Notes under the pieces: generated by a model | Told to the model about the DNA's origin: nothing | The model's database searches: none | The model's input: the letters and a program-made list of their open reading frames with translations, nothing else | In this document: positions 19,273 through 32,000 of the stretch, piece after piece | Layout of the letters: every line of letters starts with the position of its first letter | Numbering within the stretch: the first letter of the stretch is position 1 | Origin: an archaeon | Lineage (GTDB): Archaea; Iainarchaeota; Iainarchaeia; Iainarchaeales; CSSED10-239 | DNA length: 32,000 bases | Assembly: GCA_035390665.1 (NCBI GenBank) | Contig: DAOOUC010000007.1 | Span: forward strand, 12,728 to 44,727 | Reading direction: 5' to 3' | Program-made: the position numbers and the translations under genes

Positions 19273-22200
19273 TTATTGTGGAAGAGGACTTTGAGTATTA
19301 CTTCTCAAGTATGGATAAGTTGTGCTTTCGGTCATATTCCAAATGGTTGAAAAATCCCAACTTGTAAATGTACTTTGTGCTTTCATTTCTGCTGTTGTTT
19401 TTCCAGTTCCTGTTGCACTTGTTGTTTGCCCAGAGGTATTCATATCCCAGAATCCATTAGAGACTGTTATGTATCCTGAACTATATCCAATAAGTCCGCC
19501 TATATTAGATCCACTTCCAAATACTGAACCATTAGAATAACTTCTATATACTGTTGCAGGAAGACCAGATACTTCACTATACATATATCCTACAAGTCCT
19601 CCTACACGACTTAAACCAATTATTGAATTTGTAGAATAACTGTCTTCAATTCTAAATCCGGTAGTAATGTGTCCTGCAATCCCTCCAATATAAGAACTTG
19701 TTCCAGAAACATTTCCTTTAGAATAACAATATGAAATTTTTGCAGTTGTATTGTATGATCCAGATGCCGATCCTATTATTCCTCCTATTTTTTGGTTTCC
19801 AGAAATATTTGAATCAGAATAACTTGTGGTAATTAATCCAGAACCCATATATCCTACAAAACCTCCTACATAATCGTGTGCAGAAATTATTAAATTAGAA
19901 TTACTATATGATATTGTTGCATAATTTGATTTTCCTGCAATTCCCCCAACATAATCATATCCTGTAATATATCCTGTAGTGTTACTTCTTGTAATTAGTC
20001 CATAATTTTGATTACCGGTAATTCCACCAGTATAGTTTTTTCCAATAATGTTTATATCTTCCAAAATTATATCAGATAATTGAGCATATCTATCTGTAGC
20101 TCCAAACAATCCAACATAATCTGTAGCCGAATTATTTATGTAAAGATTATAAATTTTATATCCGTTTCCTTCTAGTCTTCCATTAAATGGACTTGCTAAA
20201 GTTCCAATTGGTGTCCATCCACTTCCTGTGTTATATGGTGAAATATCTAAATCTATGTCATTTGCTAATTTATAATATGCTGTTCTACTTATATCGTTTC
20301 TTATATTATAAAGATCTTCTGCAGTATAAATCATTGTAGGTGTTGGTGGTGCTACTGATGTTGGTGCTGGAGACTGCGTATTATTTATTAAATATGGATA
20401 ACTTGAGCCTTCTGTAATTGCCCAAGGAGAAGTAAAATTATAGGTTGTAAATGTTGCTTGTTGTTTCATTTCTGTAGTAGTTTTTCCTGTTCCTGCTGAA
20501 CTTGTTGTTTGTCCAGAAGTATTTATATCCCAGAAACTATTTGATATTGTTGTGTATCCAGAACTATATCCTATTAATCCTCCAACATTATTATTATATG
20601 ATCCATAAACATATCCTGAAGAATAACTTCTATTTACTGTTGTATAAAGAGATGAAACATCACTATACATATATCCAACAAGCCCACCAGTACGACCTAA
20701 GCCAATTACTGAACTTGTGGAATAACTGTCTTCAATTCTAAATCCAGTAGTTATATGTCCTGCAAGCCCTCCAACATAAGATCCTGTTCCAGAAATATTT
20801 CCTTTAGAATAACAATATGAAATTTTGGCAGTTACATTGTGTGTTCCTGTTGCAGCTCCAACTAATCCACCTACATAATCGTCTCCAGAAATATTTGAAT
20901 CAGAATAGCTTGTCGTAATGGATCCAGTACTTGTATATCCTGAAATTCCACCAACATAGTCTGTTGCAGTAATTGTGGTGCTTGAATGACTTAAAGAAAT
21001 TTCTGCGTAAGAAGAGAGGCCAGTGATTCCTCCGATATAATTTGTTCCAGAAATATTTCCAGTAGTATAACTTCTAGTAACCAACCCGTAATTTTGATAA
21101 CCAGTTATTATTCCAACATAATTTTGTCCTCTAATATTTGCATCTTCAATAATTAAATCTTCAAATCTCGCATACCTATTTGTATATCCAAATAATCCAA
21201 CATAGTCTGTTGTTGGTTTATTGATATATAGATTCCTAATTTTATACCCATTACCATATAATATTCCGGCAAATGCATTAGATGAACTAGTACCTATAGG
21301 TGTCCAGCCTTCTCCTGTGTTATATGGTGAAACATTCAAATCAATGTCGTTTGCTAATTTGTAATAAGCAGTTCTACTTATATCATTTTTCATATTATAA
21401 AGATCTTCTGCAGTATAAATCATAATCGGTGCAGGTGGATCTATTGGTGTTGGTGTAGGAGATTGTGTATTAGTTCTTAAATATGGATAACTTTCTCCTT
21501 CTGTAATATTCCATGTTGTTGTGAAATTTAAAGTAGTATAAGTACTTTGTGATTTCATTTCTGCTGTTGTTTTTCCAGTTCCTGTCGCACTTGTTGTTTG
21601 TCCAGAGGTATTTACATCCCAAAAATTTCCAGTTAAGGTATAATAAGATCCTTTTAATCCAACTAATCCTCCAACATCTGCAGGATAAGATCCTCTAACA
21701 TAACCTGAAGAATAACTGTTTGTTATTGTTGTTTTATAGGACATAGAACTATATGCAGATAAACATCCAACAAGCCCGCCAATTCTATAATTTCCAATAA
21801 CCATTGCTGTAGAATATGAATTATTTACTGCAGTACTGTCTTCCATTATACCTATTAGTCCACCAACATTTAGATTTCCAGTTATTGTTCCATTAGAATA
21901 ACTTGAATTTATTGTTCCTGCAGTAGTAGTTCCTTTTATTTCTCCAATTAATCCACCAACATAATCATTTGCAGTTATTGTTATATCTGATTTACTATTT
22001 GAAACAGTAGCATAGGTCATATATCCTACAAGTCCACCAACATAATTATTTCCGGTAATATTTCCTGTAGCATAATTGGTATTATATGTTCCATAACTAA
22101 TATATCCTGAGAAGATTCCAACATAATTCTGGCCAATAATATTTGCATTTGTTAATCCAAGAGAACTAATATTTACTGCAGAACCATTTGTGTATCCGAA

Positions 22201-23247
22201 TAATCCAACATAATCTGTAGTTGATCTATTGATATATAAATTACTAATTTTTTTACTATTTCCATTAAATGTTCCAGTAAATTTTGTTGATGAATTTCCA
22301 AGTGGAGTCCATCCATTTCCTGTTGTCCATGTAATTTTGTTAGCGGTATCATAATAACTAGAATCGTCACTAAAATTTAAGTCTCTCATTAATGTGTATG
22401 CTCCTGCAAGAGTTGTTGAGTTTGTATCTATATAATCAAGATGTTCAAGATACCATATTTCTCCGTTTGTTGGAATTAAACCAATTCCGTCAGGAACTTC
22501 AGAGACATTTACAATTATTGTATATATTTTTGTACTTTCGTCTTCTGCAGTAACAGTATAATTTACTGGATTTGTAAAATCTTGAGCAACACCTGATTCA
22601 GGACTAATTGTTGCATCTTCAGAAATAACTATTGTTGGTGTAAGATTTGTAATTGTTGTACCATAAGCAAAAGAAAAAGTAATTGTGTTATTATTTATAT
22701 CAATTGTTCCATTAGTATCATTAATTGTAAAATAAATTATTTCTTTTTCTGATGATGATATTATTGGTGGCTCTTCAGTATTTGTATCTTGTCCACCATC
22801 TTCTGTTATATTAGAATTATTATTTAAGATATTAGTTAAGGTTATTTTTTTATTATCCAAAGTCAATAATTCAATTGCTATTTTATTTTCTGGTGGCAAT
22901 TTATTTAAAGAAAGTATTCCTGTTGCTCCAGGGGTAAGAGTAATTGGATTTTCTAATATTACATCTATATTAAAATTAGAATCTTCAGAATTACTTAATA
23001 TTTTATATCCTGTTATTGTCACAGTTTTTTTTGGACTTATATTTTTAAAAGATAAATTAGTGTTTTGTATTTTTGTAGATCCAATTATATAATCATTTGT
23101 TTCTTCAAATATAATTTCACTTTTATCTGTTCCTTTTGTTGTAAAATCTGTTCCCCAAGTTAAAATAATTGTTGTTAATATTACTGCAATAGAAATTAAT
23201 AAAATTACAGAGATAATTGGAGTGATTGCTTTTTTTCTAGTTATCAT
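19273..23247 (-). CDS. giant surface protein: archaeal type IV pilin-like N-terminal domain + Ig-like domain + three tandem GLUG-motif modules
   Basis: N-terminus MITRKKAITPIISVILLISIAVILTTIIL matches the archaeal Pilin_N / class III signal pattern (K-A/G then xSPVIxxVLLIxIxV). There are many YVGGLVG/IGGITG GLUG motifs. Each module ends FWD-x-NTSGQTTSATGTGKTTAEMK...YPYL-x-NTQSP. Confidence 0.88.
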   Translation of the reverse strand: MITRKKAITPIISVILLISIAVILTTIILTWGTDFTTKGTDKSEIIFEETNDYIIGSTKIQNTNLSFKNISPKKTVTITGYKILSNSEDSNFNIDVILENPITLTPGATGILSLNKLPPENKIAIELLTLDNKKITLTNILNNNSNITEDGGQDTNTEEPPIISSSEKEIIYFTINDTNGTIDINNNTITFSFAYGTTITNLTPTIVISEDATISPESGVAQDFTNPVNYTVTAEDESTKIYTIIVNVSEVPDGIGLIPTNGEIWYLEHLDYIDTNSTTLAGAYTLMRDLNFSDDSSYYDTANKITWTTGNGWTPLGNSSTKFTGTFNGNSKKISNLYINRSTTDYVGLFGYTNGSAVNISSLGLTNANIIGQNYVGIFSGYISYGTYNTNYATGNITGNNYVGGLVGYMTYATVSNSKSDITITANDYVGGLIGEIKGTTTAGTINSSYSNGTITGNLNVGGLIGIMEDSTAVNNSYSTAMVIGNYRIGGLVGCLSAYSSMSYKTTITNSYSSGYVRGSYPADVGGLVGLKGSYYTLTGNFWDVNTSGQTTSATGTGKTTAEMKSQSTYTTLNFTTTWNITEGESYPYLRTNTQSPTPTPIDPPAPIMIYTAEDLYNMKNDISRTAYYKLANDIDLNVSPYNTGEGWTPIGTSSSNAFAGILYGNGYKIRNLYINKPTTDYVGLFGYTNRYARFEDLIIEDANIRGQNYVGIITGYQNYGLVTRSYTTGNISGTNYIGGITGLSSYAEISLSHSSTTITATDYVGGISGYTSTGSITTSYSDSNISGDDYVGGLVGAATGTHNVTAKISYCYSKGNISGTGSYVGGLAGHITTGFRIEDSYSTSSVIGLGRTGGLVGYMYSDVSSLYTTVNRSYSSGYVYGSYNNNVGGLIGYSSGYTTISNSFWDINTSGQTTSSAGTGKTTTEMKQQATFTTYNFTSPWAITEGSSYPYLINNTQSPAPTSVAPPTPTMIYTAEDLYNIRNDISRTAYYKLANDIDLDISPYNTGSGWTPIGTLASPFNGRLEGNGYKIYNLYINNSATDYVGLFGATDRYAQLSDIILEDINIIGKNYTGGITGNQNYGLITRSNTTGYITGYDYVGGIAGKSNYATISYSNSNLIISAHDYVGGFVGYMGSGLITTSYSDSNISGNQKIGGIIGSASGSYNTTAKISYCYSKGNVSGTSSYIGGIAGHITTGFRIEDSYSTNSIIGLSRVGGLVGYMYSEVSGLPATVYRSYSNGSVFGSGSNIGGLIGYSSGYITVSNGFWDMNTSGQTTSATGTGKTTAEMKAQSTFTSWDFSTIWNMTESTTYPYLRSNTQSPLPQ
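19276..22470 (-). repeat. three in-frame tandem modules of about 1.08-1.09 kb within the GLUG gene
   Basis: Anchor ATTATAAAGATCTTCTGCAGTATAAATCAT occurs at 20305 and 21394 (offset 1089). Anchor TTTCATTTCT occurs at 19381, 20464 and 21553 (offsets 1083 and 1089). Modules 2 and 3 look about 85% identical at the DNA level by eye; module 1 is more divergent. Confidence 0.85.
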
Positions 23248-26519: not shown

Positions 26520-26660
26520 ATGAAATCTAAGTTGAAGTCAAGTGGAAAGTTAAGATATTTTGTTTCAAGACAAAATAAGCCAAGATTAACTATACTAGAA
26601 ACAGAACTTGCAAAGTCTTGGTTAACAAAAGAAGAAGATGAAGCATGGAAGAATTTGTAA
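26520..26660 (+). CDS. putative antitoxin (46 aa) partnered with the MazF/PemK-like toxin
   Basis: Own translation: MKSKLKSSGKLRYFVSRQNKPRLTILETELAKSWLTKEEDEAWKNL. Its 3' end overlaps the toxin start by 16 nt (toxin ATG at 26645, antitoxin TAA at 26658-60), the classic type II TA layout. The acidic tail W-x-x-x-EEDEAW resembles antitoxin C-termini I recall, but no DNA-binding fold is recognisable. Confidence 0.5.
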   Translation: MKSKLKSSGKLRYFVSRQNKPRLTILETELAKSWLTKEEDEAWKNL

Positions 26661-26977
26661 AAGGACAAATTGTTGTTGTCCCTTTCCCTTTCTCAGATTT
26701 AACCGATTTAAAAAAAAGACCAGCAATGGTTATTAGTTCTCTTGAAGGAAATAATCTTATTCTTGCACAAATAACAAGTAGATATAGAACGCAAAAATAC
26801 TCATTAGATATTAAAATCAAAGACTTTGAAAAAGGAAATCTACATATAGATTCATATGTTAATTGCGATAAGATATTCACACTAGATAAAAACATAATAC
26901 TAAATTCTGTAGGAATATTAAAAGCAGAAAAAACATACAAAATTGTTTCTAAAATAATTGAAATTATTAAAAACTAA
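26645..26977 (+). CDS. PemK/MazF-family type II toxin (mRNA interferase-like)
   Basis: VKGQIVVVPFPFSDLTDLKKRPAMVISS...LILAQITS matches the MazF/PemK N-terminal pattern (G-D/Q-I-v-x-v-x-F-P-f-s-d...k-k-R-P-a-v-V). Confidence 0.8.
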   Translation: MEEFVKGQIVVVPFPFSDLTDLKKRPAMVISSLEGNNLILAQITSRYRTQKYSLDIKIKDFEKGNLHIDSYVNCDKIFTLDKNIILNSVGILKAEKTYKIVSKIIEIIKN

Positions 26978-27110
26978 TATAGTTCTTCAGAATTGGGTGG
27001 ATTAAGAAAAATCTAAACCCAAAAAAGTTTAAAAATCAAAACCTTTAACATTATTTTATAAAGATAATGCTTTACTATTTTTATATAAAAAAATATTTTA
27101 GGTGGATTAA

Positions 27111-30086
27111 ATGTTTATTAAAAAAAAGGGTCAAATTTCTATAGAAGCTTTAATTATTGTAAGTGTCTTAATTGTTGGAGGAATAATCTTTGCAACAGTT
27201 TATCTTGGACAAAGAAATAAACTTGCACAAGATCAATCTAGAGTTTTAGGAACAATTGATAATATTGATTATTCAGGAGATTTTGAAACAATTACAAATC
27301 CACCAACACCACCAGAGCCACCAAATCCAAATGAATGTTCACCTTATCCTGAGCATTGTTGTAATAATATCCCAGATTATGATGAAGATGGATTAGATTG
27401 TGGAGGTTCAGATTGTACGCCATGTGGAACACCAGAGTATGGTTGTGAAAATTTAGGAGAACCAACATTTAGTCCAGAGGGTGGAGTATTTAGTGAAACA
27501 GTAAATTTAAATTTAAATTATATTGATGAGTCTTGTCCAGATGCAGAAATACATTATACAATAGGAACAACTCCAGCAGAACCAACAACAAGTGATCAAA
27601 TCTTTGTTCCATTTTCTGGTCCAATAGAAATAACAAGTACACAAACGGTTAAAGCAAAAGTTTTTGCAGAAAGAAATGGAAACACATTATCTGGAGATAC
27701 TGCAACTAGATATTATGAAATAAATCCAAGTGTTTGTAATAAAATTCCAGGAACTGTAACATTTATTCCAAAAGGAACAACCTATAATTCTTCATTAAAG
27801 GTAGAATTAGAATATTATGAAAAAAACTGTTCAACATATGATATATTGTATACAATAAGTGATGTAGGTATTCCACCAGTAATAGAAAATATATATTCTG
27901 CACCTATAATAATAGCAAATAAAGATAAAAACATTACTGCACGTGTAAGAGTTTTAAATTCTTTAGGAACTTATGTTTATGGACTTCCAAAAACTGAAAT
28001 ATATACTTATAATAAAAATGGTTGTGATGGAACAATAGAACGTCCAACATTTAATCCAGTAGGGGGAACATATAATCAGCCAGTATATTTAAGTTTAAGT
28101 TATAATAACGCAACATGTTCAGATTATAATATTCATTATACAACAAACAATACAGAACCAACAACATTATCACCAATTGCTGGGAGAAATAAATCAATAA
28201 ATATTTCTGTAGATAAAAATATTACTGCAAAAGTCTTTGCAAGAAATTCATCTGGAATCATAGTTTCAGGACCATCAAAAAAAGAAAACTATAGAATAAC
28301 AGCAGGTGGTTCTGTGTTATGTGCAAGCGGAGTTGGCGGAGGAACAGGAACAATAACTGATCCAAAAATCATTTGTACTCCAGAGGAACTTAACGATATA
28401 AGATTTGGAGCTAATCTAGGAAAATATTATGTTTTAGGTCAAGATATAGATCTTAATCACTCAATTCTTTCAAATTTAGATTTAAGCTGGGGATATAGTT
28501 CAACATATGGTTGGACACCAATAGGTTTACAAACAAATGTATTTACTGGGTCTTTAGATGGTAACGGATATAAGATAAAAAATCTATATATTAATAGACC
28601 TACAAATTATAATGGAGAATATCTTGGATTATTTGGATATCTTGGTGGAACAAATCCAACAATTAAAAATTTGGAATTAGTTAATGCAAATATTACAGGA
28701 TATGGATATGTTGGAGGATTAGTAGGAGTTTCTCCAAATAATGTTAATTCAATTATAGATAATATAACAGTTACAAATATTAATCTAAATTCAAATAATT
28801 TATCAGCAGGTGGAATTATTGGTGCAAATTATAGAGGAGTATTACAAAATAGTACATCTACAGGAAACATAACTGGGGTAATGGTTGTAGGTGGATTAGT
28901 TGGATCCACAGGTCAATATTCTTCAATAATTAATAGTAATTCTAGTGCTTCTGTTTCAGGTACAGAAATAATAGGCGGGTTAGTTGGAATAGCTGGCGGA
29001 TCAATATTAAATAGTTATTTTGAAGGAGATGTTTCTGGAGATGAATATATAGGAGGTATTTCTGGATCTTTATCAACAGGAAACATAAATAACAGTTATT
29101 TTAATGGAACAGTAACAGGTGATACAGTTGTTGGAGGAATCTCTGGAAATGCAAATCAAACAGCAAAAATAATGTCTAGTTATTGTACTAATATTGCATC
29201 AATAAATGGACAAACAAAAATAGGCGGAATTGTAGGAAATATATCTTTAGGACAAAGTACTTTTTCTATAATTGAAGACAGCAATTTTAATGGAACAGTA
29301 ACAGGAATTTCAGAAATTGGCGGAATATTAGGTTATGGAAAGGCAACACAATCTGGTAGTTATTCTAGAACAATTATAAATTCAAATTTACTAAATGGCA
29401 CAATCACAGGCGATTCAAATGTTGGAGGAATAGTAGGATATAGTAATCAAACAAATATTGAAGGATGTAAGTCTAATGGAAACATAGTAGGTAAAAATAA
29501 TGTAGGTGGAATTACTGGACAAAGTTCTTCTCAACTAATATCAAATTCTTCTTTTTCAGGAACAATAACAAGCTCTGGTTCTGGAAATAATTTTGGAGGA
29601 ATAGCAGGATTTAATCAATCTAGTTATTTATTTAATAATTATTCTAAAGGAAATGTAACTGCAGGATCAAATGTAAATAATGTTGGTGGTCTTGTAGGGC
29701 AATGTAAATATGTTGCATCCAATATTTATAATAATTATTGTGTAAGTCCAGTAACTGGTGGTAATAATGTAGGTGGATTTATAGGATATTCAGAAAATTG
29801 TGGTGTTCAAAAAAATTATTCTACAGGAGCAGTAACAGGTACTACAAATGCAGGTGGATTTATTGGATCTATATCTGCTGGATTTTATAATTTTAATTAT
29901 TGGAATACACAAACATCAGGTAAAACAACAAGTGCAACAGGAACAGGAAAAACAACCGCCGAAATGAAACAACAAGCAACATTTGTTGGTTTTAATTTTA
30001 ATCCAGGAGATAATTTATGGAATATTAACGCAGGAAGCACATATCCATATTTAAGGCAAAATACACAAATGCCACTCCCAAATTAA
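27111..30086 (+). CDS. giant surface protein: class III (prepilin-type KG/QxSxE) signal + Cys-rich DCGG module + 3 chitobiase-C-like domains + GLUG-motif region
   Basis: MFIKKKGQISIEALIIVSVLIVGGIIF has KG then Q+1 and E+5, the DUF361/class III signal pattern. HCCNNIPDYDEDGLDCGGSDCTPCG follows. There are three roughly 95-aa repeats of type PTFSPEGGVF...AEIHYT...VKAKVFA (nt ~27441-28300) and many VGGLVG/IGGISG motifs. The C-terminus YWNTQTSGKTTSATGTGKTTAEMKQQATF...YPYLRQNTQMP is shared with the 19273..23247 gene. Confidence 0.88.
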   Translation: MFIKKKGQISIEALIIVSVLIVGGIIFATVYLGQRNKLAQDQSRVLGTIDNIDYSGDFETITNPPTPPEPPNPNECSPYPEHCCNNIPDYDEDGLDCGGSDCTPCGTPEYGCENLGEPTFSPEGGVFSETVNLNLNYIDESCPDAEIHYTIGTTPAEPTTSDQIFVPFSGPIEITSTQTVKAKVFAERNGNTLSGDTATRYYEINPSVCNKIPGTVTFIPKGTTYNSSLKVELEYYEKNCSTYDILYTISDVGIPPVIENIYSAPIIIANKDKNITARVRVLNSLGTYVYGLPKTEIYTYNKNGCDGTIERPTFNPVGGTYNQPVYLSLSYNNATCSDYNIHYTTNNTEPTTLSPIAGRNKSINISVDKNITAKVFARNSSGIIVSGPSKKENYRITAGGSVLCASGVGGGTGTITDPKIICTPEELNDIRFGANLGKYYVLGQDIDLNHSILSNLDLSWGYSSTYGWTPIGLQTNVFTGSLDGNGYKIKNLYINRPTNYNGEYLGLFGYLGGTNPTIKNLELVNANITGYGYVGGLVGVSPNNVNSIIDNITVTNINLNSNNLSAGGIIGANYRGVLQNSTSTGNITGVMVVGGLVGSTGQYSSIINSNSSASVSGTEIIGGLVGIAGGSILNSYFEGDVSGDEYIGGISGSLSTGNINNSYFNGTVTGDTVVGGISGNANQTAKIMSSYCTNIASINGQTKIGGIVGNISLGQSTFSIIEDSNFNGTVTGISEIGGILGYGKATQSGSYSRTIINSNLLNGTITGDSNVGGIVGYSNQTNIEGCKSNGNIVGKNNVGGITGQSSSQLISNSSFSGTITSSGSGNNFGGIAGFNQSSYLFNNYSKGNVTAGSNVNNVGGLVGQCKYVASNIYNNYCVSPVTGGNNVGGFIGYSENCGVQKNYSTGAVTGTTNAGGFIGSISAGFYNFNYWNTQTSGKTTSATGTGKTTAEMKQQATFVGFNFNPGDNLWNINAGSTYPYLRQNTQMPLPN

Positions 30087-30163: not shown

Positions 30164-32000
30164 ATGAATACAAAAAGTTATTTATTAATCTTATCAATTT
30201 TATTAATCTTCTTATCTAATTTTATATGTGCAGAAGAGTTAGATTTTTCTATTACTCAAAAGATATTTACTAATTTAGGAATAACAGAAAATAAAGAAGA
30301 AATATACTTAGATCATGGAGGAGTATTATATCCCCCAGAAAATGAATTAAGAAAACAAGGATTAAATTTAAGTTCTTATAAACAACAATTAAGAGATACA
30401 GCATCAATAAATAGAAATTCAAGTGTTGCAAATATTTGGGGAACAAGTCCATTGTCTGGAACTGTCCATATTCCTGTTCTTTTAGTTCAATTTTCAGATA
30501 ATCAAGCAACCTATACTCAATCTCAATTAAATGAAGCATTTAATAGTAGTAATTATCTGGTAAATAATATTTCAGGAATAAGTTTAAGTAAATATTATTA
30601 TAAGCAATCATATGGAGACCTTAATTTAGTATTTGATGTTTATGATTGGAGAACCGCACCAAGCACCTATTCTTATTATTCTCAAAATAATACAACTTCT
30701 TTTCAATTAGGAATTGATACAGTTAATTTATTTAATCCATATATTGATTATACACAATATGATAATGATAATGATGGAAGATTAGATGGTATGATAATAA
30801 TTTATCCTGGAGTTGGCACGAATGCACCAAATGGTATTTGGCCACATGCTAGAATCTTAAGACAATATAATTCTAATCCAATGGATGGAAAATATTTAGG
30901 AAATATTGCATTTGTTCCTGAGAAATCTACAGGTTCTTTAAATGCTTTTTCTGTAGTTACTGTAGCTCATGAGTTTGCACATGTTTTAGGGTTAATGGAT
31001 CTTTATTCAATCAACCCAACAACAGGAGCACAAAGTAATGGTGCTGTAAGGCAAATGACAATGATGGCACATAGTGTTCCAAGTTTTGCTTGTGCAATTA
31101 AGCCAATTAACTTAGACGTTTGGTCTCGTTATTTCTTTGGTTGGATCGAGCCAGAAATCTTAACCACAGATAGTAATAAAAATATAAGTCTTAGAAGTGT
31201 AAATGATTATCCAGACGCAGTAATTTTAAAAAATAATAATTTTGGTACAAGAGAATTTTTTATAATAGAAAATAGATATAGAAGTTTAACAGATCCAAAT
31301 AATTTAGACAAATGTATGTTTAGTGATTCTACATACGATACTGGAGGATTTGCAATTTATCATGTTGATGAACAATATATAGAGGAGAATTATCCTACAA
31401 ATTCTATAATGTATGATTCAGATAGCAATTATTGTGGAGACACCATAAGTCACCCAGGACTTTTATATGAACAAAATTATGTTACATCTTGTAGTACTTC
31501 AATAAATGTAGATAGAACAGATCTATATTTTAATAGTGAAATAAATAATTGTAATTTATCTAGATTTGATGAAAATCAATATATGTGTCCAGGACCATTT
31601 TGGTTTCCAATTTTAGATTTAACAACAAGAAGTTATACTGGAGTAAATAATACTTTTGTTAGATTTCAAGCAATTAGCCCTGCAAGTCAATTTACAATGA
31701 ATGCAAAAATGCTTGTTGGGCAAGAGACCGCAAATCCTGAATTGTTTCCAAATCCAGGAACATATCCTCAAACTACACAAGTTACCATAAATACAACAAC
31801 ACCTAATGCTATAATTTATTACACAACAGACGGAACAAATCCAACAACAAACAGTCTAATCTACACATCTCCAATAACTGTAACTGAAGGCACAACAACA
31901 ATAAAAGCAATAGCAAAAAGAAATGATTATTATATAAGTGACATTATGTCAAGTACATACACAATAACTGGGACTGTTGCAACACCAACAGCTAATCAAA
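30164..32000 (+). CDS. secreted M6-family (immune inhibitor A / InhA-like) metalloprotease with C-terminal chitobiase-C-like domain (3' end beyond window)
   Basis: Own translation from the ATG at 30164: MNTKSYLLILSILLIFLSNFICAEE (signal)...GTVHIPVLLVQFSDNQ...DNDNDGRLDGMIIIYPG...VTVAHEFAHVLGLMDLY (HExxH followed by GL-x-DLY, as in InhA)...FPNPGTYPQTTQVTINTTTPNAIIYYTTDGTNPTT. The frame is open to the window end and is absent from the ORF track for that reason. Confidence 0.85.
   Translation, partial: MNTKSYLLILSILLIFLSNFICAEELDFSITQKIFTNLGITENKEEIYLDHGGVLYPPENELRKQGLNLSSYKQQLRDTASINRNSSVANIWGTSPLSGTVHIPVLLVQFSDNQATYTQSQLNEAFNSSNYLVNNISGISLSKYYYKQSYGDLNLVFDVYDWRTAPSTYSYYSQNNTTSFQLGIDTVNLFNPYIDYTQYDNDNDGRLDGMIIIYPGVGTNAPNGIWPHARILRQYNSNPMDGKYLGNIAFVPEKSTGSLNAFSVVTVAHEFAHVLGLMDLYSINPTTGAQSNGAVRQMTMMAHSVPSFACAIKPINLDVWSRYFFGWIEPEILTTDSNKNISLRSVNDYPDAVILKNNNFGTREFFIIENRYRSLTDPNNLDKCMFSDSTYDTGGFAIYHVDEQYIEENYPTNSIMYDSDSNYCGDTISHPGLLYEQNYVTSCSTSINVDRTDLYFNSEINNCNLSRFDENQYMCPGPFWFPILDLTTRSYTGVNNTFVRFQAISPASQFTMNAKMLVGQETANPELFPNPGTYPQTTQVTINTTTPNAIIYYTTDGTNPTTNSLIYTSPITVTEGTTTIKAIAKRNDYYISDIMSSTYTITGTVATPTANQ

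What the first reader, a model, noticed from the sequence alone, without database searches (positions are those of the whole stretch)
27111..30086. Second GLUG giant uses a different class III signal family (KG/QISIE) and adds a Cys-rich DCGG module and three chitobiase-C-like domains
MFIKKKG/QISIEALIIVSVLIVGG has Gln at +1 and Glu at +5. That is the DUF361/EppA-substrate style of prepilin signal, distinct from the Pilin_N style of the 19273..23247 paralog. After a Pro-rich linker (TNPPTPPEPPNPNE) comes CSPYPEHCCNNIPDYDEDGLDCGGSDCTPCG, a small Cys/Asp-rich module of the DCGG-x-C kind that I recall as frequent in surface proteins of ultrasmall prokaryotes. Three roughly 95-aa repeats follow (PTFSPEGGVF..AEIHYT..TQTVKAKVFA), resembling the chitobiase/hexosaminidase C-terminal domain. 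Then come about 500 aa of GLUG repeats and the shared C-terminal TSG-x-TTSATGTGKTTAEMK...YPYLR-x-NTQ module. Two different prepilin signal families on paralogous cargo suggest either two assembly pathways or one broad-specificity peptidase displaying a family of adhesins.
Basis: partly seen in the sequence, partly recalled or inferred. Interest (0 to 1): 0.65.

Follow-up and report, generated by a model that had tools for sequence, protein, structure and literature searches.

The report
Archaeal pilin-signal adhesin paired with protease
This gene from a tiny uncultured archaeon (DPANN group) encodes a large sticky-looking surface protein that starts with a pilus-type export signal different from the one on its neighbouring relative. 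The genome has separate machinery for each signal type, and this type of protein nearly always sits next to a secreted protease.

Summary
Window 27111-30086 (+) is an intact 991-aa gene with, in order:
- a KG/QISIE class III (prepilin-type) signal;
- a Pro-rich linker;
- one six-Cys DCGG module;
- three Ig/FN3-like CHB_HEX_C_1 domains;
- a ~510-aa GLUG beta-helix;
- a C-terminal cap shared with the 1324-aa neighbour.

Orthologues at 99, 81, 61 and 55% identity from independent assemblies keep the whole architecture, so it is not a chimera.

The genome (848 kb, Diapherotrites/Iainarchaeota-like) has 17 KGQxSxE ("type A") and 16 Pilin_N-type ("type B") N-termini. It has three A24 prepilin peptidases. 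One is a ~9-TM EppA-like enzyme inside an Epd-like operon full of type-A pilins. Type-B small pilins sit behind a different platform-gene pair. This favours two assembly pathways, as in Methanococcus maripaludis, but no cleavage has been shown.

Two corrections:
- The Pfam class III model scores below its threshold.
- The DCGG module is one unit of a very widespread, unnamed four-Cys repeat, not something special to ultrasmall cells.

New here: type-A cargo proteins form a conserved, co-oriented pair with a secreted M6 metalloprotease across the family, while the cargo varies.

This scan has already found similar cargo-bearing archaeal pilin-like proteins on other DNA several times.

The parts
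27080..27105 (+). AT-rich TATA-like box (TTTATATA, 27080-27087) and a Shine-Dalgarno-like AGGTGG (27100-27105) upstream of the ATG
   Evidence: Read directly from the sequence. The promoter scan uses a bacterial consensus and was uninformative: 22 sites found against 25.9 expected.
27111..27131 (+). Class III signal leader MFIKKKG (residues 1-7), with predicted cleavage after G7
   Evidence: The rule for EppA substrates comes from PMC3875500 and PMC4390842.
27132..27293 (+). Mature pilin-like 'handle' (residues 8-61): Q8 at +1, E12 at +5, a hydrophobic helix, then a short polar tail. There is no globular pilin domain.
   Evidence: AF2 models a helix at residues 6-47. The handle is invariant in orthologues down to 55% identity. 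It scores 31.3 bits against the genome's own type-A pilin HMM.
27294..27335 (+). Pro-rich linker TNPPTPPEPPNPNE (residues 62-75)
27336..27425 (+). Six-Cys module (residues 76-105). It is one canonical four-Cys DCGG unit (C84, C97, C102, C105) plus a two-Cys N-terminal extension (C76, C83).
   Evidence: All six Cys plus H82, N85, G98 and G99 are invariant in the orthologues. A profile of the module finds 1154 representative proteins carrying tandem CxNGxxDxxExGxDCGGxCxxC units. No Pfam model matches. It is the only copy in the genome. AF2 is not confident here.
27438..28304 (+). Three tandem Ig/FN3-like CHB_HEX_C_1 domains (residues 110-206, 207-302, 303-398), each with one Cys pair
28350..29885 (+). 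GLUG right-handed beta-helix (residues ~414-925), including an N-terminal cap (DPKIICTPEELNDIR...)
29886..30086 (+). C-terminal cap module (WNTQTSGKTTSATGTGKTTAEMK...YPYLRQNTQ) and the stop codon
   Evidence: It is 61% identical at the protein level to the cap of P0002 and 71% identical at the DNA level over 174 nt.
30164..31999 (+). Co-oriented secreted M6 (InhA-like) metalloprotease with a Sec signal, HEFAH at residue 269 and a CHB_HEX_C_1 domain. It is cut off by the end of the contig.
   Evidence: TIGR03296 scores 117.8 bits against a cut-off of 110.8. The same neighbour occurs in the orthologous loci L004 and L005.
19273..23247 (-). Paralogous 1324-aa GLUG protein (P0002) carrying the other (Pilin_N / archaellin-type) class III signal
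   Evidence: TIGR02537 scores 24.3 bits against a cut-off of 20.

Best explanation
P0001 is a cargo-bearing, pilin-like surface adhesin of a DPANN archaeon (Diapherotrites/Iainarchaeota-like).

Shown:
- It begins with a DUF361/EppA-substrate-type class III signal and a ~55-residue helical 'handle' of the size of minimal Flp/MMP1685-type pilins.
- The handle is followed by a Pro-rich linker, one disulfide-type DCGG bead, a three-domain Ig-like stalk and a GLUG beta-helix head.
- The genome holds two separate families of class III N-termini and three prepilin peptidases. One of these is an EppA-like ~9-TM enzyme encoded among type-A pilins, with its own ATPase and two platform proteins.

Inferred:
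- The EppA-like peptidase cuts after G7.
- The mature protein, starting at Q8, is either inserted sparsely or at the tip of the Epd-like pilus, or is held in the membrane by its helix. Either way the beta-helix head projects about 20 nm or more from the cell to bind another cell's surface.
- The type-B paralogue (P0002) is handled by a different peptidase and platform set, so the cell displays related adhesive heads through two pathways.
- The adjacent secreted M6 metalloprotease works with the adhesin, either on the bound target surface or on the adhesin itself. This is suggested because the pairing is conserved while the cargo changes.
For: Architecture.

Signal classification: 17 type-A and 16 type-B N-termini in the genome. 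The HMM scores are 31.3 against -6.9 bits for P0001, and the reverse for P0002.

Peptidases:
- Three A24 genes, each keeping both catalytic Asp.
- pep1 carries Peptidase_A24 plus Arc_PepC, has about 9 hydrophobic segments and aligns to EppA model positions 7-330 of 334. It lies within C1:83.5-92 kb together with an ATPase, two TadC-like genes and eight type-A pilin-like genes.
- Full-length pep1 homologues occur in about 110 of the 151 genomes of the phylum that were searched; 140 have a match of any length.

Type-B small pilins follow another platform pair at C1:133.6-137.4 kb.

Literature:
- EppA substrates have a leader ending in Gly, +1 Gln and +5 Glu, and EppA and FlaK do not share substrates (PMC3875500).
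- The +1 Gln appears essential for EppA processing (PMC4390842).
- EppA is the 9-TM variant found in its own pilus loci (PMC4858521).

Not a chimera: four orthologues from independent assemblies keep the full architecture.

M6 pairing:
- own genome, twice;
- orthologous loci L004 and L005;
- five of five inspected loci in related genomes, with gaps of 60-350 bp and cargo of 386-1151 aa.
Against: - No cleavage, filament or binding data exist.
- Pfam Class_IIIsignal is below its gathering score for this protein.
- pep1 scores 44 bits against an equivalog cut-off of 450 for EppA, so it is EppA-like in architecture, not an established EppA.
- The handle lacks any globular pilin domain, and its helix is more like those of other cargo proteins (21/32 identical to C15:773) than those of the operon pilins (5-10/32). 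It may therefore never enter a filament.
- A 930-residue passenger is sterically hard to fit along a pilus shaft.
- The gene is about 100 kb or more, and on another contig, from the pilus operon.
- The GLUG head has no demonstrated ligand.
Confidence: 0.65

Rival explanations
1. One broad-specificity PibD-like peptidase processes both signal families. Under this reading the two families reflect ancestry of the handles rather than separate pathways.
For: In most archaea studied, a single PibD removes the signals of pilins, archaellins and sugar-binding proteins (PMC4858521, PMC3875500). pep2 (277 aa, Peptidase_A24 only) sits among housekeeping genes next to SRP54 and FtsY, as a general enzyme might.
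Against: The genome keeps three peptidases in only 848 kb. One is embedded among type-A pilins, and full-length homologues occur in about 110 of the 151 genomes searched in the phylum. In the one organism tested that has both EppA and FlaK, their specificities do not overlap (PMC3875500).
Confidence: 0.15
2. The N-terminus is an uncleaved signal-anchor (or an ordinary Sec signal). P0001 would then be a membrane-tethered or shed surface protein with no link to any pilus system.
For: There is no globular pilin domain. The gene is not in a pilus locus. Pfam Class_IIIsignal is below threshold. The handle groups with those of other cargo proteins rather than with the operon pilins.
Against: The K-G-Q-x-S-x-E register is identical to that of the pilins encoded around the EppA-like peptidase, and it is invariant in orthologues down to 55% identity. 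The type-A HMM, trained without any cargo protein, scores it at 31.3 bits. The hydrophobic stretch starts directly after the Gly, and no A-x-A type site follows it.
Confidence: 0.12
3. The GLUG beta-helix is not an adhesin head. It would be an enzyme or a protease-accessory module, so that P0001 and the M6 protease form a degradative pair.
For: The closest solved folds are the GLUG-type domain of IgA1 proteases, where the helix helps hold the substrate, followed at weak scores by polysaccharide lyases and phage tailspikes. The M6 neighbour is conserved.
Against: No catalytic family is detected in P0001. In relatives the M6 partner is paired with quite different cargo, including DUF285-like repeats and cysteine-rich domains. 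The pairing therefore follows the handle, not GLUG.
Confidence: 0.08

Closest known systems
EppA-processed DUF361 (Pfam PF04021 Class_IIIsignal) pilins of Methanococcus maripaludis (MMP1685, EpdA-E) and their Epd pilus locus
   Same: Short basic leader ending in Gly, +1 Gln, +5 Glu and a hydrophobic helix. The genome also has a dedicated long (~9-TM) peptidase encoded with an ATPase, two platform genes and many small pilins, plus a second FlaK/PibD-like peptidase for another substrate class (PMC3875500, PMC4858521).
   Different: The known substrates are 67-299 aa, whereas P0001 carries about 930 aa of cargo and lies outside the pilus locus. The host is a DPANN archaeon, a group in which a 2026 census found few type IV filament systems (PMC13705601). 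Pfam and NCBIfam scores fall below the curated thresholds.
Bacterial modular type IV pilins (Streptococcus sanguinis PilB and PilC)
   Same: A pilin-type N-terminus with an extra functional module grafted on for adhesion (PMC8179133, title and abstract as listed).
   Different: Those proteins keep a complete globular pilin module and carry one extra domain. P0001 has only the helix, followed by a linker, a stalk and a beta-helix. Incorporation into a filament has not been shown.
[quoted passage not shown]
   Same: Large non-pilin cargo exported and surface-localised through a prepilin-type signal (mentioned in PMC4858521, PMC3875500 and PMC13705601).
   Different: The signal family is different (no +1 Gln or +5 Glu), the cargo is different (solute binding rather than beta-helix), and a single broad-specificity peptidase is used.
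GLUG-domain proteins: BACOVA_03286 (PDB 3n6z) and the N-terminal domain of M26 IgA1 proteases (PDB 7uvk, 6xja)
   Same: The same beta-helix fold (Foldseek E 4.5e-6, TM 0.61 on the target) and the Pfam Glug repeats.
   Different: Those are Sec-exported bacterial proteins, and the M26 enzymes carry their own catalytic domain. P0001 has none.
Unnamed four-Cys 'DCGG' bead repeat, possibly the 'archaeal protease-type (ARC) repeat' of Templeton et al. 2004 as quoted in PMC4501334
   Same: The spacing C-x-N-x(3)-D-x(2)-E-x-G-x-D-C-G-G-x(1,2)-C-x(2)-C.
   Different: It is present as a single copy with an extra two-Cys extension, not as a tandem array. Identity with the ARC repeat was not checked by sequence.

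Membership tests
Class_IIIsignal / DUF361 (PF04021), EppA-substrate type | Short basic leader ending in Gly, with Gln at +1 and Glu at +5, followed by a hydrophobic helix | tested here: met
   MFIKKKG/QISIE followed by 21 hydrophobic residues. The rule is taken from PMC3875500.
Class_IIIsignal / DUF361 (PF04021), EppA-substrate type | Score at or above the Pfam gathering threshold (23.7 bits) | tested here: not met
   13.3 bits in hmmscan and 18.9 bits in the six-frame search. The alignment does cover the full model, 1-27/27. Eight other proteins of the genome pass the threshold.
Class_IIIsignal / DUF361 (PF04021), EppA-substrate type | Same N-terminal family as bona fide small pilins encoded with the dedicated peptidase | tested here: met
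   An HMM built from 13 small type-A pilins of this genome gives 31.3 bits, against -6.9 bits for the type-B model.
Class_IIIsignal / DUF361 (PF04021), EppA-substrate type | Cleavage by an EppA-type prepilin peptidase | not testable with these tools
   A candidate enzyme exists (pep1, C1:90102-91169). There are no biochemical data.
EppA prepilin peptidase (NF053826), for pep1 | A24 core with two catalytic Asp, the extended ~9-TM architecture, and a location in the pilus locus | tested here: met
   D21 and D83 are present. There are about 9 hydrophobic segments. The protein aligns to model positions 7-330 of 334. The operon context is shown.
EppA prepilin peptidase (NF053826), for pep1 | Equivalog score (450 bits) | tested here: not met
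   44.3 bits. pep1 is EppA-like, not an assigned EppA.
Type IV pilin (structural) | N-terminal alpha-helix followed by a globular beta-sheet head domain | tested here: not met
   AF2 shows a helix at residues 6-47, then about 15 residues, then the Pro-rich linker. Only the helix part is present, as in Flp- or MMP1685-size pilins.
CHB_HEX_C_1 (PF13290) | Pfam gathering score and an Ig-like beta-sandwich fold | tested here: met
   55.4 bits against a cut-off of 22, with two stretches. The third unit is supported by 27-40% internal identity and by the modelled fold.
GLUG (PF07581) | Repeated GLUG motif forming a beta-helix | tested here: met
   56.8 bits against a cut-off of 20.5. There are 14 GGxxG turns. 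The AF2 beta-helix has pTM 0.85 and matches 3n6z.
DCGG four-Cys bead repeat (no database model) | C...D-C-G-G-x(1,2)-C-x(2)-C spacing, with N, D, E and G at the conserved positions | tested here: met
   No Pfam family matches. The structure was not resolved.
M6 / InhA-type metalloprotease (the neighbour P0003) | M6 domain model score and an HExxH motif | tested here: met
   TIGR03296 scores 117.8 bits against a cut-off of 110.8. HEFAH is at residue 269. The Pfam Peptidase_M6 match is only 19.5 bits against a cut-off of 22.

The most novel reading that the evidence does not exclude
In this archaeal family, the EppA-type 'handle' plus secreted M6 protease may form a conserved two-gene contact cassette. 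A fixed pilin-like helix would plug interchangeable binding heads (GLUG, DUF285-like, cysteine-rich and others) into an Epd-like pilus system, while the partnered protease acts at the contact site or releases the head. That would be a dedicated host-attachment and host-attack device of episymbiotic DPANN archaea. A second, type-B handle system would run in parallel.
Probability: 0.3. Interest if true: 0.65.

Novelty: new variant of a known kind. Interest (0 to 1): 0.45.

Why it matters
How DPANN archaea attach to and exploit other cells is largely unknown, and they cannot yet be manipulated genetically.

This genome gives a concrete, testable picture. There are two distinct prepilin-signal "address labels", each with its own candidate peptidase and platform genes. 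They are used to display a changing set of large adhesive heads. The division of labour between two prepilin peptidases has so far been shown only in Methanococcus maripaludis (PMC3875500). Here it appears in a much reduced genome, and the EppA-like enzyme is found across the phylum.

The conserved pairing of the type-A cargo proteins with an M6 protease points to a functional unit that could be tested in vitro. For annotation, it shows that "hypothetical" giants in these genomes can be sorted by handle type.

Tried and rejected
- Mis-assembled chimera: rejected. P0004 (99% identity, on 3 contigs), P0005 (81%), P0006 (61%) and P0007 (55%) come from independent ENA, Logan and JGI assemblies and keep every module.
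- Naming or folding the Cys module: Pfam found nothing, even at E = 10. AF2 gave pLDDT below 50 for residues 37-110. The question of metal against disulfide chemistry is therefore unanswered.
- Recent gene conversion between P0001 and P0002: rejected. The best DNA match is 71% over 174 nt.
- Recent intragenomic handle swap: not supported. The N-cap of the GLUG region is closest to type-A GLUG proteins of other organisms (50-61% identity) rather than to the type-B paralogues in this genome (44-47%).
- Co-occurrence test of the EppA-like peptidase with type-A proteins across the phylum: uninformative, because the peptidase is found in most genomes searched (140 of 151 with any match, about 110 of them full-length).
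- Scan of named species genomes for relatives: one weak locus only.
- Sequence search of solved structures (phmmer against PDB chains) with pep2: no hit.
- Bacterial-type promoter and terminator scan: at chance level.
- N-glycosylation sequons: 28 found against 21 ± 3.7 expected, so not clearly enriched.
Full report
THE GENE AND ITS ORGANISM

Window 27111-30086 (+) is an uninterrupted 991-codon ORF. It starts at the first ATG after a stop codon and has an AGGTGG six bases upstream.

The window is G000:C7:12728-44727 of an 848-kb, 21-contig genome that is 86% complete and has about 28% G+C. Its ThrRS is 84-86% identical to proteins named Candidatus Diapherotrites archaeon and Candidatus Iainarchaeum sp.. 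The organism is therefore a DPANN archaeon of that lineage.

ANATOMY

The protein reads as follows:
- leader MFIKKKG (residues 1-7);
- QISIEALIIVSVLIVGGIIFATVYLGQ (from residue 8);
- a short polar stretch;
- linker TNPPTPPEPPNPNE (62-75);
- CSPYPEHCCNNIPDYDEDGLDCGGSDCTPC (76-105);
- three ~95-residue units (110-206, 207-302, 303-398);
- a GLUG region (~414-925);
- a C-terminal cap (926-991).

Pfam scores are Glug 56.8 bits (cut-off 20.5), CHB_HEX_C_1 55.4 bits (cut-off 22; two stretches) and Fn3_assoc 33.8 bits. Class_IIIsignal reaches only 13.3 bits against a cut-off of 23.7, although it aligns over the whole 27-position model.

The three units are 27-40% identical to each other. Each has a Cys pair in the same two positions.

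AF2 on residues 1-430, with six homologues as the alignment, gave:
- a helix at residues 6-47;
- an unconfident stretch at 37-110 (pLDDT below 50);
- three beta-sandwich domains, with per-10-residue pLDDT mostly 80-93 (range 66-93).

Foldseek matched these domains to tandem FN3 arrays.

AF2 on residues 400-991 gave a beta-helix with pLDDT 83.6 and pTM 0.85. Its best solved relatives are the GLUG protein BACOVA_03286 (3n6z; E 4.5e-6) and the N-domains of IgA1 proteases.

NOT AN ASSEMBLY ARTEFACT

A search of 5.8 billion proteins found full-length relatives at 99, 81, 61 and 55% identity in independent ENA, Logan and JGI assemblies. All four keep the signal, the six cysteines plus H82, N85, G98 and G99, the three Ig-like units and the GLUG region.

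TWO SIGNAL FAMILIES

Six-frame searches and a regular-expression survey of the genome found two sets of N-termini:
- 17 of the form K-G-Q-x-S/A-x-E plus a hydrophobic stretch (type A);
- 16 of the form K-K-A-L/I-S-P-I-I-A-T-I-L-L (type B, Pilin_N/archaellin-like).

I built one HMM from the 13 small type-A pilins and one from the four small type-B pilins, leaving out all cargo proteins.
- P0001 scores 31.3 bits on type A and -6.9 on type B.
- The 1324-aa neighbour P0002 scores 27.2 bits on type B and 1.5 on type A.
- P0002 also passes NCBIfam TIGR02537, with 24.3 bits against a cut-off of 20.

All four other GLUG proteins of the genome are type B. P0001 is the only type-A GLUG protein here. Type-A (KGQ or KAQ) GLUG proteins do exist in related metagenomic organisms: 9 of the 120 best hits, with none of type B in that length range.

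Type A matches the published description of EppA substrates: a leader of 5-13 residues ending in Gly, Gln at +1 and Glu at +5 (PMC3875500). The +1 Gln appears to be essential for EppA processing (PMC4390842).

PEPTIDASES AND ASSEMBLY GENES

The genome has three Peptidase_A24 genes. Each keeps both catalytic aspartates.

pep1 (C1:90102-91169, 355 aa):
- It has Peptidase_A24 plus Arc_PepC domains and about nine hydrophobic segments.
- It aligns to positions 7-330 of NCBIfam's 334-position EppA model, but at 44 bits against a cut-off of 450.
- It sits in a block comprising an ATPase, two TadC-like platform genes and eight type-A pilin-like genes.
- Makarova et al. describe EppA as the 9-TM variant found in its own pilus loci, and PibD/FlaK as the 5-TM form (PMC4858521).
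- Homologues of pep1 were found in 140 of the 151 genomes searched in the phylum, about 110 of them full-length.

pep3 (C2:108116, 252 aa) has Peptidase_A24 plus Arc_PepC_II and aligns along the FlaK model. It lies next to a 788-aa ATPase homologue and platform genes.

pep2 (C2:66060, 277 aa) has only the A24 core and lies beside SRP54 and FtsY.

Four small type-B pilins directly follow a separate platform pair at C1:133.6-137.4 kb. Further ATPase and platform sets exist.

Taken together, this favours two or more pathways over a single broad peptidase. In M. maripaludis, EppA and FlaK do not share substrates (PMC3875500). Which enzyme cuts which protein here is inferred, not shown.

THE HANDLE

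The mature N-terminus is only about 55 residues long before the linker, and no globular pilin domain follows it. This is the size of minimal pilins such as the 62-residue mature MMP1685 (PMC3875500).

Its helix is most like those of the other cargo-bearing type-A proteins: 21/32 identical to C15:773 and 12-13/32 to the C2 proteins. It is less like the operon pilins, at 5-10/32.

Across 22 genomes of the family there is no orthologue of residues 1-430. The handle (residues ~3-110) does match many other ORFs of 900-1160 aa. So the handle is conserved and the cargo is variable.

THE CYS MODULE

This is the only DCGG motif in the genome, and it has no Pfam match.

A 44-position profile built from five loci was searched against 1.84 billion representative proteins. 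It found 1154 proteins at E <= 0.001 and 178 at E <= 1e-10. Many of them carry 3-39 tandem units of the form C-x-N-G-x-x-D-x-x-E-x-G-I/V-D-C-G-G-x-C-x-x-C. Six such proteins had no Pfam model covering the repeat.

P0001 therefore holds one canonical four-Cys bead (C84, C97, C102, C105) plus a two-Cys extension (C76, C83).

Earlier notes of this scan reached the same view of the repeat. One of them links it to the "archaeal protease-type repeat" of Templeton et al. 2004. I found that phrase quoted in PMC4501334 but could not check the identity by sequence.

THE PROTEASE NEIGHBOUR

Downstream of P0001, 77 bp away and co-oriented, lies a Sec-signal protein. It has an M6 domain (TIGR03296 117.8 bits against a cut-off of 110.8), HEFAH at residue 269 and a CHB_HEX_C_1 domain.

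The same neighbour follows the 81% and 55% orthologues.

The genome's only other M6 gene (C2:11488-14325) lies between a small type-A pilin and a 582-aa type-A protein with DUF285-like repeats.

I compared the positions of handle matches with those of M6 matches in the 22 family genomes. At least 11 further M6 genes lie within about 3 kb of a handle. I read the ORFs in five of these loci. In all five:
- a type-A protein is directly adjacent to an HExxH protein, with a gap of 60-350 bp;
- the two genes are on the same strand;
- the cargo differs in each, at 386, 565, 989, 1083 and 1151 aa.

The pairing therefore follows the handle, not the GLUG head. More distant type-A GLUG proteins (P0008, P0010, P0013) did not show it on their short contigs.

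HISTORY

The N-cap of the GLUG region is closest to type-A GLUG proteins of other organisms (50-61% identity). The C-terminal cap is closest to the neighbour P0002 (61% at the protein level). At the DNA level that match is only 71% over 174 nt. There has been no recent conversion, so the gene is an old mosaic.

VERDICT

The most likely mechanism is as follows. The EppA-like peptidase processes the protein. The protein is then displayed either on or near an Epd-like pilus, or held in the membrane by its helix. This puts a stalked beta-helix head outward, and a secreted M6 protease works alongside it.

In kind it is a variant of known things: EppA-type pilin-like proteins, modular pilins (PMC8179133) and class-III-signal cargo such as the Sulfolobus bindosome. 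This scan has already reported similar cargo-bearing archaeal pilin-like proteins on other DNA. A 2026 census of archaeal type IV filaments found few systems in DPANN archaea (PMC13705601). That makes the rich inventory here worth noting.

Two things are added here: the within-genome evidence for two handle systems, and the conserved handle-M6 cassette.

Noticed in passing
window 30164-31999; G000:C2:11147-16139; loci L004, L005, L017-L021: A secreted M6 (HExxH) metalloprotease is directly adjacent to, and co-oriented with, a KGQxSxE-signal cargo protein. This holds in the window, at a second site in the genome, in two orthologous loci and in five of five inspected loci of related genomes. The cargo differs in each case.
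   Followed up: partly
G000:C3:69954-73829: A type-B (Pilin_N-signal) GLUG protein of 549 aa lies next to a 739-aa Sec-signal protein. That protein carries a Lon-type (S16) DGPSAG...K motif and a C-terminal membrane segment. It may be a second adhesin-protease pairing, this time on the other signal family.
   Followed up: no
G000:C1:83499-91993: An Epd-like (system 1) pilus operon: a 572-aa ATPase, two TadC-like platform genes, eight type-A pilin-like genes (including four QGALEYLL paralogues of 144-292 aa and 57- and 63-aa mini-pilins) and a ~9-TM EppA-like peptidase.
   Followed up: partly
G000:C15:773-2458 and C15:2484-4559: A 561-aa type-A protein has a handle 21/32 identical to that of P0001. 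It carries CGNxxCE...C..C cysteine modules instead of GLUG. It is followed by a 691-aa secreted protein with a Hint/intein-like C-terminal region (CFKSGTPV...VHN).
   Followed up: no
window 29886-30083 versus 19273-19480 (-): The C-terminal cap of P0001 is closer to that of the type-B neighbour P0002 (61% aa) than to caps of type-A GLUG relatives (34-48%). The N-cap of the GLUG region shows the opposite pattern. The orthologues P0006 and P0007 have a different, longer cap. The gene is a mosaic, with no recent DNA exchange (71% nt).
   Followed up: partly
L004:87-980: In the 81%-identical orthologous locus, a DDE transposase gene sits immediately upstream of the adhesin gene. In the window that position holds a MazF/PemK toxin gene (26645-26977). 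The surroundings of the cassette are therefore variable.
   Followed up: no
L019 (G155:C8:34000-49269): A relative has four consecutive large surface-protein genes (1047, 923, 913 and 1151 aa) followed by an M6 protease. Two have KGQ signals and two have a shortened 'MNSKAQMEVIIL' variant lacking the +3 and +5 pattern.
   Followed up: no
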